Origin: a virus
Lineage: Duplodnaviria; Heunggongvirae; Uroviricota; Caudoviricetes
IMG/VR virus record: IMGVR_UViG_2574180220_000002
Direction: 5' to 3' (one strand)
Length of the DNA: 9,322 bases
Both the position numbers and the translations under genes were made by a program. Each line of letters starts with the position of its first letter. Within the stretch, counting starts at the first letter, position 1. Under the pieces are notes generated by a model, which saw nothing but the letters and a program-made list of their open reading frames with translations, made no database searches and was not told where the DNA came from. Shown here piece by piece: positions 1 to 9,322 of this stretch.

Positions 1-861
1 ATGAGATTCAGCACCCCATTACGGTATCCTGGTGGTAAAGGTAAATTAACTAACTATCTATCAAAGATCATTATGATCAATGGTTTAGATGGTTGCGAAT
101 ATGTTGAGCCGTATGCTGGTGGTGCTGGAGTAGCCATTAATTTACTTTTGTCTGGGAAAGCATCACGTATACATTTAAACGATCTTAATAACGCCATTTT
201 TTGTTTTTGGCGGTCAATTCTAGAAGAAACTGATCAGTTTTGCCAATTAATTGAAAAAACCCCTGTGAATATGGATGAATGGTATAAGAATAAAAATATC
301 ATTAGTAATCAATGTGATTATTCCTCATTGGAAGTTGGATTCGCTACGTTTTTCCTTAATCGAACAAATCGGTCAGGAATTTTGTTAGGTGGTGTAATTG
401 GTGGTAAGGAACAAAATGGAAAATGGAAAATAGATGCTCGATTTAATAAGGTTGATTTAGTAAACCGTATTAAGGTAATAGCAGACCGTAAATCTGATAT
501 TTGTATCTATAACCAAGATGCTAAATCATTCTTGCAAAATACTGTAACTGGATTCCCATTAAAAACATTGCTTTATCTTGACCCTCCATATTATGTTAAA
601 GGAAAGGGCTTGTATCAAAACCATTATAGTCATGATGATCATGTCGAAATTGCTAATATTATAAAATCTAATTCAAAGCATCCATGGATTGTATCTTACG
701 ATAATACTGTTGAAATAAACAACATGTACACTGGTCTTAGAAAAATTGAGTACGGTATCAGCTATAGTGCTCAATCTAGGTACCAAGGGCCAGAAGTAAT
801 CTTTTTTTGTGATAGCATTTCTATTCCTGATGATATGGATCCTACAAGAGTCAAATTATAG
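1..861 (+). CDS. DNA adenine (N6) methyltransferase, Dam/D12 family
   Basis: 286-aa ORF with ATG at position 1. Contains N-terminal RYPGGK, EPYAGGAGV (AdoMet-binding motif I-like), FFLNRTNRSG and the catalytic DPPY tetrapeptide (LYLDPPYYV), in the order typical of Dam/DpnM/T4 Dam. Visibly much more AT-rich than the rest of the window (by eye, not computed). The 3' end overlaps the convergent integrase gene by 11 bp. Confidence 0.85.
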   Translation: MRFSTPLRYPGGKGKLTNYLSKIIMINGLDGCEYVEPYAGGAGVAINLLLSGKASRIHLNDLNNAIFCFWRSILEETDQFCQLIEKTPVNMDEWYKNKNIISNQCDYSSLEVGFATFFLNRTNRSGILLGGVIGGKEQNGKWKIDARFNKVDLVNRIKVIADRKSDICIYNQDAKSFLQNTVTGFPLKTLLYLDPPYYVKGKGLYQNHYSHDDHVEIANIIKSNSKHPWIVSYDNTVEINNMYTGLRKIEYGISYSAQSRYQGPEVIFFCDSISIPDDMDPTRVKL

Positions 862-1981
862 CTATTTTACTCCAATCTTTCCCTCGGTCATCATGGTAGC
901 GATCTGTTTGCTGCTGGGTTTTATGGCCCAGTAGCTTTCTAGTATCGATCCCCTGTTCTTTGTACAGACGTTCAGATAAAGACCGTTGTTCATGGAATGT
1001 GGCAGGTGAACCTTTCCCCCAATCAATTCCTGCTAAATCTCTTGCTTTACTGAAATTCATAGTCAAGGTATTGGCTTTAACCTGTGCGCCGCGTTCAGCC
1101 TGTGAAGTAGTACGAAAAAAATGTACAAGGTATGGGCTGACAGCATAGTCACGGCAACGGGCTACTACATCGCGCAAACTCCAGTTAATCGCATTGAGGC
1201 GCAGAGAAAGCGGGATGGCGATTTTGCTCCCGGTTTTTTCCTGGATGACGTGAAGATGATCATCCCAAATATCGCTAAATTTCATACGTGAGATATCACC
1301 TAACCGTTGGCCGGTAACCAGTGCTAACAGCATGGCATTCCCCATATAACGATGACTGGCATCTGCAATATCAAAGATTTTTTGCCACTCTTCAAGATTT
1401 AACCGTTGTCGGGTAATTTTTCTTCTGGGTTGTTTGGTTGCCAGTGCAGGATTATAGCCCGGAGGGACTTCCCCATAGTGTTGTGCCTCCTTGAATACAT
1501 CAATTAGAACGGAGCGGACTACTTGCGCCATCCTCGGTTGCCCGGCAGTGATATACTCGTCAAGCAATTGTGCTATATCCCTTACATCAACTGATGAAAT
1601 TAATTTCATTCCTGCTCGTTCCCTGAGCAAGGATACTGGTTTGGCTTTCTGTTTATAGGTGTTGAGCTTTATATCGCCACTTTCCAGTCTGTCATCCTGG
1701 ATTGCTTGATAGCGATCTAACCAGGTTGACGTTGTGATTGCTTTTCCTTTGCTGGTTGCGATCCTGTCACTGATAGCCAGAATCTGCCGGGTTCTTTGCT
1801 CAGCCAGGCGTGAATTTGCCTCAGTGGCAATAGCAATGGCTTCAGCTTCGTTTGTGCCTAAAGAATGAAACTTCCCGGTCACTGGATGTTTATATCGCCA
1901 ATAGACTTTATTTACTTTTCTGCTATAAAGCGGATACAAGTTCGGGACTGAAACATTATTTTTACGTGGTCTGGCTGCCAT
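851..1981 (-). CDS. int: Tyrosine site-specific integrase, lambda Int family
   Basis: 376-aa ORF starting at ATG (1981..1979). Collinear with lambda Int from the N-terminal arm-binding region to the catalytic C-terminus: TGQRLGDI (Arg), HEQRSLSERLY (His-x-x-Arg), LLGHK...DRYHDD (His and the Tyr nucleophile). Appears intact. Confidence 0.95.
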   Translation of the reverse strand: MAARPRKNNVSVPNLYPLYSRKVNKVYWRYKHPVTGKFHSLGTNEAEAIAIATEANSRLAEQRTRQILAISDRIATSKGKAITTSTWLDRYQAIQDDRLESGDIKLNTYKQKAKPVSLLRERAGMKLISSVDVRDIAQLLDEYITAGQPRMAQVVRSVLIDVFKEAQHYGEVPPGYNPALATKQPRRKITRQRLNLEEWQKIFDIADASHRYMGNAMLLALVTGQRLGDISRMKFSDIWDDHLHVIQEKTGSKIAIPLSLRLNAINWSLRDVVARCRDYAVSPYLVHFFRTTSQAERGAQVKANTLTMNFSKARDLAGIDWGKGSPATFHEQRSLSERLYKEQGIDTRKLLGHKTQQQTDRYHDDRGKDWSKIAII

Positions 1982-2222
1982 TACCTAAAATCCTTTGTAG
2001 AATAATAGAATCACTTTTCTTTATTACTGGAGTAACTAACTCCCCAACTAACTCTGCATCCTCACGCACTCGCCATAGTCGACCTTGTTTCATTGCCGGT
2101 GGACAAAATAAATTCTGCTTAGCATAACGACGTAATGTGGACACACTTGGAGGATTACTCCTAAATTTTTCCGCAGCCCATTCCTCAAGTGTCAGCATTT
2201 GAAGCATTTTTGATAACCTCAT
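1962..2222 (-). CDS. xis: Excisionase (Xis, winged-helix DNA-binding family)
   Basis: Small ORF immediately upstream of int, overlapping its start by 20 nt, the usual int-xis arrangement. Product contains LTLEEWAAEKF...PSVSTLRRYAKQ...GRLWRVREDAE, typical of phage excisionases. Start is ambiguous: ATG at 2222 has no SD, while the in-frame ATG at 2207 (MLQMLTLEEW) has AGG about 9 nt upstream. Confidence 0.7.
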   Translation of the reverse strand: MRLSKMLQMLTLEEWAAEKFRSNPPSVSTLRRYAKQNLFCPPAMKQGRLWRVREDAELVGELVTPVIKKSDSIILQRILGNGSQTT

Positions 2223-2250
2223 TTCTTTTGCTACAAAACTATTTCACTAG

Positions 2251-2799
2251 TTAATTTCGCTGTCTGGATTGTTTATGTATCTTATGCAGCTCTTTAAAGC
2301 GTTCCATAAACATCCCGTAGGCATGGCCCGGTGCCAGTGGAATCACGTTGAACATCTCTGTTGCCGGGATACCTTCCAGCACAGGCCAGAAAGAGCCATC
2401 ATCAAGCCCGAGATCGCGGCGTTCGGTTGCCAGCATGATGAGATCGGCATATTTCACGGGCGTACTCATAACTGGGGGTAACCCGTATTTCTCACGGATT
2501 ACGGCGTCTATTTTTTCTTCCATTTGTTTATAGTCAGGAAGAAGGCGTTTCAGTGGTGCGGGAATGTCCTGGCAATACGCTTCTGTTGCATCATGCATTA
2601 ACGCTTCAAAAGCAAATTCCTGCGGCACCAACTGGCTGCAAAGAACCGCATGTTGGGCGACGCTGTAGAAGTGCGAAAGATGACCGGCAAAGCGACAGAT
2701 ATTTGAAAGGGAAACCGCGATATCGTTAATATCGATGTCGTCTTTATTTATCCTGTCATAATAAAAATGCTTCCCGGAAAAAGTTTTAATAAATGACAT
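2251..2799 (-). CDS. yfdR: HD-domain phosphohydrolase (YfdR/YfbR-like 5'-deoxynucleotidase family)
   Basis: Conserved H...HD metal-binding signature (HLSHFYSVAQHA ... LMHDATEAY). The track ORF begins at GTG 2826; I prefer ATG at 2799 (MSFIKTF), which has GGAG 6 nt upstream, giving about 182 aa. Size and position, downstream of a DUF2303 gene and upstream of xis/int, match YfdR of CPS-53-type prophages (from memory). Confidence 0.8.
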   Translation of the reverse strand: MSFIKTFSGKHFYYDRINKDDIDINDIAVSLSNICRFAGHLSHFYSVAQHAVLCSQLVPQEFAFEALMHDATEAYCQDIPAPLKRLLPDYKQMEEKIDAVIREKYGLPPVMSTPVKYADLIMLATERRDLGLDDGSFWPVLEGIPATEMFNVIPLAPGHAYGMFMERFKELHKIHKQSRQRN

Positions 2800-4179: not shown

Positions 4180-4227
4180 TTTGCTGCTCCCCATCATATC
4201 GACCCTGCAAGGTCGGTTGGTTTCTCC

Positions 4228-4327
4228 ACAAAACAGAGAAGAACACCTGCGGTGGCAGCCGCCCGGATGGATTGGGTTATGAGCCCGTCGTCCGGTGATG
4301 CTCTTCTCTGTTTTGTAAAAAGAGCGG
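4228..4327 (-). promoter_or_regulatory. boxA-like motif followed by a long structured hairpin in the leader of the early-left operon (candidate nut/put-type antitermination element or structured 5' UTR)
   Basis: Minus strand reads CGCTCTTTTTACA (4326->4314), resembling boxA (lambda nut CGCTCTTA; rrn TGCTCTTTAACA). It is followed by a perfect 15-bp inverted repeat, ACAAAACAGAGAAGA (4228-4242) / TCTTCTCTGTTTTGT (4302-4316), enclosing 59 nt with nested stems (CCGGA 4263-4267 / TCCGG 4291-4295; GCGG 4249-4252 / CCGC 4259-4262). Lies about 50 nt upstream of the 120-aa gene start. Confidence 0.35.
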
Positions 4328-4860
4328 TACCTGCCGGAAGCAAGTGTACAAACTGGTACCGCCAAAGCAGTGGCTGTTGTGGTGACCGGTGCTGATCTCC
4401 GGCTTGCGGTTATTTCAGACTCTCACGGGCGTTTAATTGCCCCGCCGAACAGCTCTTTTCCGCAATAGCTGCAATGTCTTTCGCGCATCAGTCTGCGCAT
4501 TCACCACAACGCTGAGAGCACTTAGCCAGTTACGGCACCACACTTTGTCGCGGTTCCATAAATGCCCTCATCGTTGCACCCTGGTCTCTTCCCAGGCGTC
4601 AAACCGAATCGCCACGCTGGTTAGGCGTCTTATCAGCATCATCATTGACTTGCACATTCCGGCTACCTAGTTTGTTTGCTCGAGCAAGGAGTGGATTGTC
4701 CCCTTTAACGTCACCAGACCGCTAACGACGCATGTGCCATACGCCGTGTTACAACCAAATTTTGTTAGTACCTTGTTTGTTTGTCTGGAAAGAAAGATAA
4801 AATGAAGTTGCGTATTATGCAAGTGTTTTTGTTGCGAGATATGCAATTTAAAGGGTGATG

Positions 4861-4881
4861 AAAAGCCACCTTTGGGTGGCT
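4861..4881 (-). terminator. Candidate intrinsic terminator downstream of the cI-like gene
   Basis: Stem AGCCACC (4864-4870) / GGTGGCT (4875-4881) with loop TTTG. On the minus strand it is followed by only UUUC, a short U-tract. Lies about 20 bp after the repressor stop (4902-4904). Confidence 0.4.
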
Positions 4882-4901
4882 AATTGATGAGGAGGTAAGG
4901 G

Positions 4902-5954: not shown

Positions 5955-8686
<2,732 letters not shown>

Positions 8687-8687
<1 letters not shown>

Positions 8688-9322
8688 TGGAATTCAGAAT
8701 GAGTGAACAACCACGGACCATAAAAATTTATAATCTGCTGGCCGGAACTAATGAATTTATTGGTGAAGGTGACGCATATATTCCGCCTCATACAGGTCTG
8801 CCAGCAAACAGTACCTATATTGCACCGCCAGATATTCCGGCTGGCTTCGTGGCTGTTTTCAACAGTGATGAGTCATCGTGGCATCTCGTTGAAGATCATC
8901 GGGGTAAAACGGTTTATGACGTGGCTTCCGGCGACGCGTTATTTATTTCTGAACTCGGCTCATTACCGGAAAATGTTACCTGGTTATCGCCGGAAGGGGA
9001 GTTTCAGAAGTGGAACGGCACAGCCTGGGTGAAAGATGCAGAAGCAGAAAAACTGTTCCGGATCCGGGAGGCGGAAGAAACAAAAAACAGCCTGATGCAG
9101 GTAGCCAGTGAGCATATTGCGCCACTTCAGGATGCTGTAGATCTGGAAATCGCAACGGAGGAAGAAACCTCATTGCTGGAAGCCTGGAAAAAGTATCGGG
9201 TGTTGCTGAACCGTGTTGATACATCAACTGCACCTGATATTGAGTGGCCTGCAACCCCTGTTATGGATAATCGTTCCTGTTGTAGCCACAGTCACGTCAT
9301 ATACAAGAACTTGCTGGCCTAA
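8687..9322 (+). CDS. tfa: Tail fibre assembly protein (Tfa family chaperone)
   Basis: 211 aa, starting [54 protein letters not shown]..., the conserved Tfa N-terminus of lambdoid/Rac/e14-type prophages. Translationally coupled to stf through the ATAATGG overlap. The last ~17 residues ([18 protein letters not shown]) look like a non-canonical extension. Confidence 0.88.

What the first reader, a model, noticed from the sequence alone, without database searches (positions are those of the whole stretch)
1..861. AT-rich Dam-family methyltransferase whose 3' end overlaps the integrase gene: integration target, phage cargo, or edge of a neighbouring defence island
The MTase gene is far more AT-rich than the prophage genes (by eye), which suggests separate horizontal origin. 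It converges on int and the two coding regions overlap by 11 bp, so the prophage att core, normally just 3' of int, would fall at or inside the MTase 3' end. Either the phage integrated into the 3' end of this gene and rebuilt its terminus, or the MTase is a moron carried between int and attL. No cognate restriction gene is in the window; the window starts at the MTase ATG, so a partner would lie off-window to the left. It could be an orphan anti-restriction or epigenetic MTase, or half of an R-M system.
Basis: partly seen in the sequence, partly recalled or inferred. Interest (0 to 1): 0.55.

Follow-up and report, generated by a model that had tools for sequence, protein, structure and literature searches.

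The report
Prophage methylase paired with OLD-like nuclease
The AT-rich methylase gene beside the integrase is cargo of an e14-type prophage, not its integration site. It is the second gene of a widespread two-gene cassette whose first gene, just off the window, encodes an ATPase with a probable nuclease domain, so the pair is most likely an undescribed restriction-modification-like phage defence.

Summary
Window 1-861 (+) is an intact 286-aa D12-class N6-adenine DNA methyltransferase at 33.7% GC. The integrase is 45% GC and the rest of the window 47.6%. The methylase overlaps the convergent intE gene by 11 bp.

The window is the left end of an e14-type prophage integrated in icd. In complete E. 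coli genomes the att duplication lies inside icd, about 2.1 kb left of window position 1. The methylase is therefore prophage cargo between attL and int, and the integration-target reading is refuted.

Sixty-nine bp upstream, off-window, lies a 569-aa ABC ATPase with a probable Toprim nuclease domain. Its best whole-protein fold matches are OLD-family nucleases. The pair is near-obligate: 77 of 78 informative species-level loci with the ATPase also carry this methylase family, and 70 have it directly downstream.

The methylase matches PADLOC PD-Lambda-5_B (E 1.9e-121). The validated PD-λ-5 system pairs that family with an unrelated ParB/HEPN protein, so this is an effector-swapped variant. The ATPase has no full-length family model in PADLOC 2.0, no NCBIfam model above its cut-off, and falls in a PHROG of unknown function.

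I infer a restriction-modification-like defence, not shown here. The target motif and any phage protection are untested.

The parts
1..861 (+). D12-class N6-adenine DNA methyltransferase, 286 aa. It is the second (downstream) gene of the two-gene cassette and belongs to the PADLOC PD-Lambda-5_B family.
   Evidence: ORF. Pfam PF02086 E 8.7e-18. PADLOC PD-Lambda-5_B E 1.9e-121 and MTase_II E 6e-103. The motifs PLRYPGGK, EPYAGGAG and DPPY are invariant in the family. GC is 33.7%. It is 100% identical to WP_021547448-type genes in E. coli genomes.
851..861 (.). 11-bp overlap of the convergent 3' ends of the methylase and intE.
   Evidence: The same 11-bp overlap occurs in Enterobacter hormaechei, which has the same icd-ATPase-MTase-int arrangement (L010: MTase 6790-7650, int 7640-8770).
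851..872 (.). Right boundary of the exchangeable cargo slot. The last ~6 codons of intE (…DWSKIAII*) travel with the cargo; homology to other e14-type int genes begins at about 865-872.
   Evidence: Megablast hits of about 500 genomes begin at window 865-868. The alignment of five int 3' ends is. The int C-termini are SKIAII, MYIHQF, AKIKV, NKLELK, LKITII and SKVAL after the conserved DDRGK[DEG]W.
851..1981 (-). intE, the lambda-type tyrosine integrase of an e14-like prophage that integrates in icd.
   Evidence: Pfam Arm-DNA-bind_1 E 7e-37 and Phage_integrase E 4e-17. It is annotated intE in RefSeq genomes, with icd to the left.
1962..2222 (-). xisE excisionase. With int it defines the prophage end that the cassette sits outside of.
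   Evidence: Pfam Exc E 2.7e-12 and RefSeq annotation.

Best explanation
Window 1-861 is the methyltransferase gene of a mobile two-gene cassette carried as cargo (a moron) by an e14-type lambdoid prophage. The cassette sits in the variable slot between attL, which lies inside icd, and the 3' end of intE.

The cassette's first gene lies 69 bp upstream of window position 1. It encodes a 569-aa OLD-like protein with an ABC ATPase head and a C-terminal domain that has Toprim topology and invariant acidic residues.

Proposed mechanism (inferred, not shown): the methylase marks adenines in the lysogen's own DNA, and the ATPase-nuclease attacks incoming unmarked DNA. That would be a restriction-modification-like barrier against superinfection. 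It would work like the validated PD-λ-5 system, which uses the same methylase family with an unrelated ParB/HEPN effector.

Shown here: gene identity, cargo status, att position, obligate pairing, effector swapping and conservation of catalytic residues. Inferred: in vivo methylation, nuclease activity, self/non-self discrimination by methylation, and phage protection.
For: **Cargo, not target**
- In EC190486 and STEC388 the order is icd(+) - ATPase(+) - MTase(+) - intE(-).
- The last 164 bp of icd plus its terminator are duplicated at the far prophage end as an annotated icd pseudogene fragment. A 28-bp block of uninterrupted identity lies at L001:11889-11916. K-12 e14 begins at the same point in icd.
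- Three TTATCAAAA repeats follow icd in both K-12 and this lineage. They are probable Int arm sites and lie left of the cargo.
- The slot holds different cargo in other genomes: ymfD/ymfE/lit in K-12, a DUF262/NsnA-like pair, and an AriA/GajA-like ATPase pair.
- A functional temperate phage, phiNP, carries xis-int-ATPase-MTase (PMC6456863).

**A two-gene unit**
- All 7 E. coli genomes with the methylase also have the ATPase.
- Of 80 species-level loci with an ATPase homologue, 77 carry this methylase family, and 2 of the 3 without it end at a contig edge. In 70 the methylase is directly downstream on the same strand, with a gap of 29-163 bp.
- The pair sits in unrelated prophage positions in Enterobacter, Yersinia, Acinetobacter, Pseudomonas, Klebsiella and E. 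coli 042-type prophages.
- The cassette GC is below that of its flanks in all 7 contexts tested.

**Partner is OLD-like**
- Walker A (K41/S42), signature (S223-G225-E226), Walker B (D257-E258) and H291 are invariant. So are E358/D359 and D412-x-D414.
- The AF2 model has pLDDT 87. The top Foldseek PDB matches are T. scotoductus OLD, GajA and the retron Eco8 OLD nuclease (E 5e-12 to 1e-10).
- The C-terminal model (pLDDT 91) has the order β1-[ED]-α-β2-α-β3-[DxD]-β4.

**Defence logic**
- The methylase matches PD-Lambda-5_B at E 1.9e-121.
- Relatives 58-60% identical sit next to true PD-Lambda-5_A proteins (E 5e-65 to 1e-120).
- In viral contigs the methylase family has the ATPase in 20 loci, PD-Lambda-5_A in 32, both in 2 and neither in 10, of 64.
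- PD-λ-5 was shown to protect broadly against phages and had to be cloned in an mrr-deleted host. This suggests that its methylase (a family relative, not this gene) is active in vivo (PMC9519451).
- The effector is almost never found alone, while the methylase sometimes is. That asymmetry is expected if methylation protects the cell from the effector.
Against: - There are no functional data for this cassette. The methylase's target motif is unknown. In the ST131 methylome study the prophage-borne D12 methylase M.EcoMIV (I did not establish its relation to this family) had no assignable motif and appeared silent in culture (PMC4659465).
- Characterised OLD-family systems (P2 Old, Gabija, PARIS, retron Eco8) are not methylation-guided.
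- One cassette carrier (GF31) also has a K-12-type mrr, so incompatibility with Mrr is not general.
- One solitary ATPase homologue exists, in Aggregatibacter.
- The window itself holds only the methylase. The presence of the ATPase in the window's own source is inferred from 7 of 7 related genomes.
Confidence: 0.65

Rival explanations
1. The cassette is a methylase-guarded abortive-infection or addiction module rather than a true restriction system. In this reading the ATPase-nuclease is a toxic effector held in check by ongoing methylation or by the methylase protein. It fires when a phage blocks methylation, delivers a trigger, or when the prophage is lost, and it kills the cell or degrades nucleic acids indiscriminately.
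For: [quoted passage not shown]
- Characterised relatives of the ATPase act as trigger-sensing abortive effectors: PARIS AriA/AriB and the retron Eco8 OLD nuclease, as described in the papers. P2 Old is also a relative.
- The near-obligate linkage (77 of 78) fits a toxin-antitoxin dependency as well as it fits restriction-modification.
- Three-gene versions carrying both effector types (L120, L126) suggest layered functions.
Against: - No sensor or trigger is identifiable.
- Two unrelated effectors each pairing with one highly conserved methylase is the classic pattern of restriction-modification systems.
- Nothing here distinguishes direct immunity from abortive infection.
Confidence: 0.25
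2. The methylase is an orphan, self-serving phage enzyme that protects phage DNA from host restriction or acts in epigenetic regulation. The upstream ATPase is functionally unrelated cargo.
For: - Prophage D12 methylases are often orphans and silent in lysogens (PMC4659465).
- About 10 of 64 viral-contig copies of the family have no recognisable partner.
Against: - The ATPase co-occurs with this methylase family in 77 of 78 informative loci across several phyla, with fixed order and short gaps.
- All 7 E. coli carriers have both genes.
- The pair moves together between unrelated prophage positions.
Confidence: 0.06
3. The methylase is a host gene, or the edge of a chromosomal defence island, into whose 3' end the phage integrated and rebuilt the terminus.
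For: Only the 11-bp overlap with int and the composition contrast with the phage genes.
Against: - The att duplication is inside icd, 2.1 kb to the left.
- The 820-890 region has no repeat elsewhere in the prophage.
- The gene is absent from E. coli genomes without this prophage variant.
- The same pair is packaged in phage phiNP.
- The left neighbour of the cassette is icd.
Confidence: 0.02

Closest known systems
PD-λ-5 (Vassallo et al. 2022, Nat Microbiol; PADLOC PD-Lambda-5_A/B)
   Same: The methylase family is the same (PD-Lambda-5_B, E 1.9e-121). Both are two-gene operons with the effector first and the methylase second, both are prophage-borne, and relatives 58-60% identical sit in true PD-λ-5 loci.
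   Different: The effector is not PD-Lambda-5_A (ParB/HEPN). hhalign gives under 1.1% probability of homology. Here the effector is an ABC ATPase with a probable Toprim domain. No phage-protection data exist for this version.
OLD-family nucleases (P2 Old and T. scotoductus OLD, Class 1; GajA, Class 2; retron Eco8, Class 3; PARIS, Class 4)
   Same: The partner has the same size and architecture as P2 Old (569 against 586 aa): an OLD-type ABC ATPase followed by a C-terminal domain with Toprim topology and E…DxD. The best whole-protein fold matches are OLD, GajA and Eco8. Full-length hhalign against the Old family gives 93% probability, E 3e-7. Like P2 old, it is a prophage moron.
   Different: It lacks a Pfam OLD-like_TOPRIM (PF20469) hit, which Old homologues have. 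The C-terminal domain is not significantly similar by sequence. Its genetic context is an obligate D12 methylase, which is none of the contexts that define Classes 1-4 (PMC10568477).
Type II restriction-modification systems with D12/α-class adenine methylases (Dam/DpnII type)
   Same: An α-class D12 methylase with intact motifs lies next to a putative nuclease. One methylase family pairs with unrelated nucleases, as with isoschizomer systems. PADLOC MTase_II model PDLC03358 matches at E 6e-103.
   Different: The putative nuclease is ATP-dependent and OLD-like, not a PD-(D/E)XK, HNH or GIY-YIG type II enzyme. The methylase falls below the Dam subfamily cut-off. The recognition sequence is unknown.
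e14 attL-int cargo slot of E. coli K-12 (ymfD, ymfE, lit)
   Same: Same prophage type, same icd integration site and same slot between attL and intE. K-12 carries the T4-exclusion protease Lit there.
   Different: The cargo is different and unrelated. Here the right edge of the slot cuts into the last codons of int and creates the 11-bp overlap.
PrrC within the EcoprrI type I restriction-modification locus (the 'RM+Abi' paradigm; from my own knowledge)
   Same: An ABC-type ATPase fused to a C-terminal nuclease is genetically coupled to a DNA-modification system.
   Different: PrrC has a HEPN anticodon nuclease and is embedded in a three-subunit type I system. Here there is a single D12 methylase and a Toprim-like domain.

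Membership tests
D12-class (Dam-family, α-group) N6-adenine DNA methyltransferase | Match to Pfam MethyltransfD12 (PF02086) above the gathering score | tested here: met
   65.4 bits against a cut-off of 22, E 8.7e-18, residues 9-245.
D12-class (Dam-family, α-group) N6-adenine DNA methyltransferase | SAM-binding motif I and catalytic motif IV (D/N-P-P-Y/F) present, in α-group order | tested here: met
   EPYAGGAG at residues 36-43 and DPPY at 194-197. Both are invariant in 23 family members.
Dam proper (GATC orphan methylase, NCBIfam TIGR00571) | Score above the curated subfamily cut-off; GATC specificity | tested here: not met
   61.3 bits against a cut-off of 114.85. Specificity cannot be tested with these tools.
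PD-λ-5 defence system | B component: PD-Lambda-5_B methyltransferase | tested here: met
   E 1.9e-121, 402.8 bits, profile positions 3-280 of 291.
PD-λ-5 defence system | A component: an adjacent PD-Lambda-5_A (ParB/HEPN) protein | tested here: not met
   The upstream gene is an AAA_15/AAA_21 ABC ATPase. No PD-Lambda-5_A model is among its best 25 PADLOC hits, and its C-terminal half has none. hhalign against a PD-Lambda-5_A alignment gives 0.2-1% probability. True A proteins score E 5e-65 to 1e-120.
PD-λ-5 defence system | Experimentally shown anti-phage protection | not testable with these tools
   Shown only for the ECOR7 system (PMC9519451).
OLD-family nuclease (the off-window partner) | N-terminal OLD-type ABC ATPase with Walker A, signature, Walker B and H-loop | tested here: met
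OLD-family nuclease (the off-window partner) | C-terminal Toprim domain with a conserved Glu and DxD | tested here: inconclusive
OLD-family nuclease (the off-window partner) | Genetic context of a defined class: alone, with a UvrD-like helicase, with a retron RT, or with AriB | tested here: not met
   The neighbour is a D12 methylase in 77 of 78 informative loci. The class definitions come from PMC10568477.
Type II restriction-modification system | A methylase plus a cognate endonuclease that cuts the unmethylated target | not testable with these tools
   The methylase is present and the putative nuclease is adjacent. Cleavage and its sensitivity to methylation need experiments.
e14-type prophage integrated in icd | Lambda-type int and xis, with the icd 3' end duplicated at both prophage ends | tested here: met
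   Int and Exc domains. The icd duplication appears in EC190486, whose sequence is 100% identical to window 1-2300. The window itself does not reach attL.

The most novel reading that the evidence does not exclude
The cassette may define a methylation-coupled class of OLD-like ATPase-nucleases. This would be an ATP-dependent, restriction-modification-like defence in which an m6A mark laid down by a highly conserved D12 methylase tells an OLD-type nuclease what is self. The same methylase would then serve as a common module for at least two unrelated, interchangeable effectors, PD-Lambda-5_A or the OLD-like protein, and sometimes both in one locus. No member with the ATPase partner has, as far as I could find, been named or tested.
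Probability: 0.4. Interest if true: 0.65.

Novelty: new variant of a known kind. Interest (0 to 1): 0.5.

Why it matters
How OLD-family nucleases tell foreign from self nucleic acid is still poorly understood outside Gabija, PARIS and the retron systems. A lineage that is almost never found without a dedicated adenine methylase offers a direct, testable answer: methylation. It also offers a simple two-gene model in E. coli prophages.

The result also shows that the PD-λ-5 methylase is a shared module with swappable effectors. Current detectors that require PD-Lambda-5_A would therefore miss about a third of the loci in viral contigs (22 of 64).

For genome annotation, it explains a recurrent 'orphan Dam-like methylase next to int' in e14-type prophages as part of a cargo slot whose edge cuts into the int 3' end.

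Tried and rejected
- **att repeat at the MTase/int junction.** Window 820-890 has no match of 12 nt or more elsewhere in the 68 kb of EC190486 prophage and flanks, and there is no att-like repeat within window 1-2300. Rejected.
- **Mrr incompatibility as a proxy for in vivo methylase activity.** I searched with a chimeric cassette+mrr query. K-12-type mrr is in only about 952 of 5426 genomes. Six of 7 carriers lack it, but GF31 has both. Uninformative.
- **Homology between the two alternative effectors.** The ATPase family and the PD-Lambda-5_A family show none.
- **Solved-structure relatives of the methylase.** There was one distant hit, 7m6b (E 2e-19), whose specificity I do not know.
- **Literature.**
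  - No paper in the held library mentions the accessions of the E. coli proteins.
  - None that I found describes an OLD-like ATPase with a D12 methylase pair.
  - Krishnan et al. 2020 (NAR 48:10045), which may cover ABC-ATPase 'RM-like' systems, is not held.
- **Promoter scan of the cassette.** Fewer sites than in shuffles, so uninformative.
- **The window's exact source.** It is not among 5426 complete E. coli genomes; the best place covers 62%.

Full report
**1. The observation**

The window carries an ORF at 1..861 (+, 286 aa) and a convergent ORF at 851..1981 (-, 376 aa). They share 11 bp.

The first ORF is a D12-class N6-adenine DNA methyltransferase. It matches Pfam PF02086 at E 8.7e-18, above the gathering score. 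Its SAM motif and DPPY motif are intact and invariant across the family. The second ORF is a lambda-type integrase, followed by an excisionase.

GC content is 33.7% for the methylase, 45.0% for int and 47.6% for the rest of the window. GC3 is 25% for the methylase, 40% for int and 52% for icd.

'Dam-family' holds only in the broad D12 sense. The protein scores below the NCBIfam Dam subfamily cut-off, 61.3 against 114.85 bits.

**2. Where the window comes from**

Megablast against 5426 complete E. coli genomes finds the int-xis backbone in about 500 genomes. The methylase is in only 7, and homology breaks at window 865-868. In EC190486, which is 100% identical over window 1-2300, and in STEC388, the gene order is:

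- icd (+)
- a 569-aa 'AAA family ATPase' (+)
- the methylase (+)
- intE (-), then xisE

This is an e14-type prophage integrated in icd.

The last 164 bp of icd and its terminator are duplicated. One copy completes icd at attL. The other is an annotated icd pseudogene fragment about 60 kb away at attR. The two copies share a 28-bp uninterrupted identity at L001:11889-11916. K-12's e14 feature starts at the same point in icd.

Directly after the icd terminator lie three TTATCAAAA repeats, 11 and 13 bp apart. They are conserved in K-12, where chance expectation is 0.23 matches. I read them as probable Int arm-type sites; this is inference.

The att site therefore lies about 2.1 kb to the left of window position 1. 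Both the ATPase and the methylase are inside the prophage.

Window 820-890 has no repeat of 12 nt or more anywhere else in the 68 kb of prophage and flanks. The integration-target reading is refuted, and so is the 'neighbouring island' reading, because the left neighbour is icd.

**3. The cargo slot and the 11-bp overlap**

About 500 e14-type prophages share the 97 bp after icd (L001:12060-12156) and share int from about window 865-872 onward. What lies between varies:

- K-12 carries ymfD, ymfE and the Lit protease.
- RM7190 carries a DUF262/NsnA-like pair.
- STEC17-183 carries an AriA/GajA-like ATPase plus a small protein.
- W12-1 carries hypothetical genes.

The int proteins agree up to DDRGK[DEG]W, and then each cargo type has its own last ~6 residues. 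The right edge of the exchangeable slot therefore lies inside the int 3' end. This is why the methylase stop and the int stop overlap.

The same 11-bp overlap is kept in Enterobacter hormaechei, which has the same icd-ATPase-MTase-int arrangement. There the ATPase is 75% identical to the E. coli protein and the methylase 76%.

**4. The partner**

The upstream protein has invariant Walker A, ABC signature, Walker B and H-loop residues. Its C-terminal third has invariant E358/D359 and D412-x-D414.

An AlphaFold model (pLDDT 87) finds T. scotoductus OLD, Gabija GajA and the retron Eco8 OLD nuclease as the best PDB matches, at Foldseek E 5e-12 to 1e-10.

Sequence methods do not confirm Toprim:

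- The C-terminal half has no Pfam or PADLOC hit.
- Profile-profile comparison with the P2 Old family is non-significant for the C-terminal domain alone. Full-length comparison gives 93% probability, driven by the ATPase.

I therefore call the partner 'OLD-like with a probable, divergent Toprim nuclease domain', at about 70% confidence.

The family is PHROG 3940, 'unknown function'. It has no NCBIfam model above its cut-off. Its best PADLOC hit is only 77 bits.

**5. The pair is a unit**

- All 7 E. coli carriers of the methylase have the ATPase.
- A second, diverged pair (ATPase 47% identical, methylase 57%) sits after a different integrase in 128 E. coli genomes and in the functional temperate phage phiNP (PMC6456863).
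- Homologues in Yersinia, Acinetobacter, Pseudomonas and Klebsiella prophages show the same ATPase-then-methylase order at unrelated prophage positions.
- In a species-level scan, 77 of 80 loci with an ATPase homologue carry this methylase family. Two of the three exceptions end at a contig edge.
- In 70 of those loci the methylase is directly downstream on the same strand, 29-163 bp away.
- One solitary ATPase exists, in Aggregatibacter.
- The cassette's GC is lower than its flanks in all seven contexts tested.

**6. Relation to PD-λ-5**

The methylase matches PADLOC PD-Lambda-5_B at E 1.9e-121. PD-λ-5, from E. coli ECOR7, was found by functional selection. It is described as 'ParB/HEPN, methyltransferase', protects against most phages tested, and had to be cloned in an mrr-deleted host (PMC9519451). 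The mrr requirement suggests that the PD-λ-5 methylase modifies DNA in vivo.

Methylases 58-60% identical to ours in Desulfovibrio, Gallionella and Pectobacterium contigs lie directly after true PD-Lambda-5_A proteins, which score E 5e-65 to 1e-120. The two effector families show no homology to each other.

The methylases attached to either effector are as similar to one another (56-62%) as those within one group. This includes the region between motifs I and IV.

Among 64 viral contigs with this methylase family:

| Neighbouring effector | Contigs |
|---|---|
| ATPase only | 20 |
| PD-Lambda-5_A only | 32 |
| Both | 2 |
| Neither, or at a contig edge | 10 |

The locus is therefore an effector-swapped variant of PD-λ-5, not a member of it.

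**7. Mechanism**

The best-supported reading is a restriction-modification-like barrier carried by the prophage. The methylase marks the lysogen's DNA, and the ATPase-nuclease attacks unmarked incoming DNA. Three lines support it:

- the dependency asymmetry (the effector is almost never alone, the methylase sometimes is);
- the classic restriction-modification pattern of one methylase family with unrelated nucleases;
- the precedent of PD-λ-5.

The main rival, at about 25%, is an abortive or addiction module in which methylation keeps a toxic effector quiet. This fits the behaviour of known OLD relatives and the 'RM+Abi' comment of Vassallo et al. None of the tools here can separate the two.

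The genomic test I tried, absence of mrr in carriers, was uninformative. Only about 18% of E. coli genomes have K-12-type mrr, and one carrier has both. The target motif is unknown. Published ST131 methylomes assigned no motif to the prophage D12 methylase M.EcoMIV; its relation to this family was not established here.

**8. Novelty and score**

The methylase itself is a member of a known family, and cargo at the attL-int slot of e14 is a known theme. What I could not find described is the obligate pairing of an OLD-like ATPase-nuclease with this methylase.

- The published OLD classes are defined by other contexts (PMC10568477).
- PADLOC 2.0 and NCBIfam 20.0 have no matching model for the ATPase, and PHROGs places it in a family of unknown function.
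- One possibly relevant paper, Krishnan et al. 2020, could not be read.

I rate the finding a new variant of a known kind, with interest 0.5. Two limits apply. Only the methylase half lies in the window, and all functional statements are inference.

Noticed in passing
window 5955-7065: The 162-aa ORF at 5955-6443 matches only the C-terminal part of an N6_N4 (PF01555) DNA methylase. It is followed directly by an internal Ig-domain fragment of tail-tip protein J (6448-7065), then stf and tfa. This looks like a deletion scar joining the cro region to the late genes, so the window's prophage is a remnant. No complete E. coli genome shows this arrangement; the best place covers 62%.
   Followed up: partly
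window 9030-9228 (+): Full-length Rfam match to IS009 RNA (229.5 bits against a gathering score of 117), lying inside the tail-fibre-assembly gene.
   Followed up: no
window ~4180-4900: About 700 bp between the yfdP-like gene and the cI-like repressor carry no annotated gene in the related RefSeq genome. GC here is 53-55%, the highest in the left half of the window.
   Followed up: no
L001:12122-12154 (off-window, about 1.85 kb left of position 1); also K-12 L025:1944-1976: Three direct TTATCAAAA repeats, 11 and 13 bp apart, lie just after the icd terminator. They are conserved between this lineage and K-12 e14 (0 of 200 shuffles reach 3 matches). They are probable Int arm-type sites of attL and mark the left edge of the cargo slot.
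   Followed up: partly
L003:11440-23510 (EC190486 prophage): A satellite-like element is inserted inside the prophage's major capsid gene, leaving two pseudogene halves. It carries an integrase, a TIR-domain protein, an Icd-like protein, a primase, SSB, its own capsid and decoration proteins, a small terminase and an Abi protein.
   Followed up: no
L006:7239-11095 (EC190486, attR-proximal end): A type II restriction endonuclease, a cytosine methylase and a GIY-YIG protein sit between tail-fibre remnants and the displaced icd fragment. This is a second cargo hotspot at the other prophage end.
   Followed up: no
L120:795-4882 and L126:3211-6423 (viral contigs): Three-gene versions in which the methylase has both alternative effectors next to it: ATPase, PD-Lambda-5_A, MTase in L120, and PD-Lambda-5_A, MTase, ATPase in L126.
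   Followed up: no
L103:4818-6671 (Aggregatibacter kilianii): This is the only informative locus of 78 where the ATPase homologue has no methylase nearby. It keeps the E and DxD motifs and sits between housekeeping-type genes.
   Followed up: partly
L001:14073 against L002:14001 (= window 73 against 1): RefSeq annotates the same methylase gene with two different starts, 262 aa in EC190486 and 286 aa in STEC388. The longer form includes the family-invariant PLRYPGGK motif, so the shorter annotation is probably wrong.
   Followed up: yes
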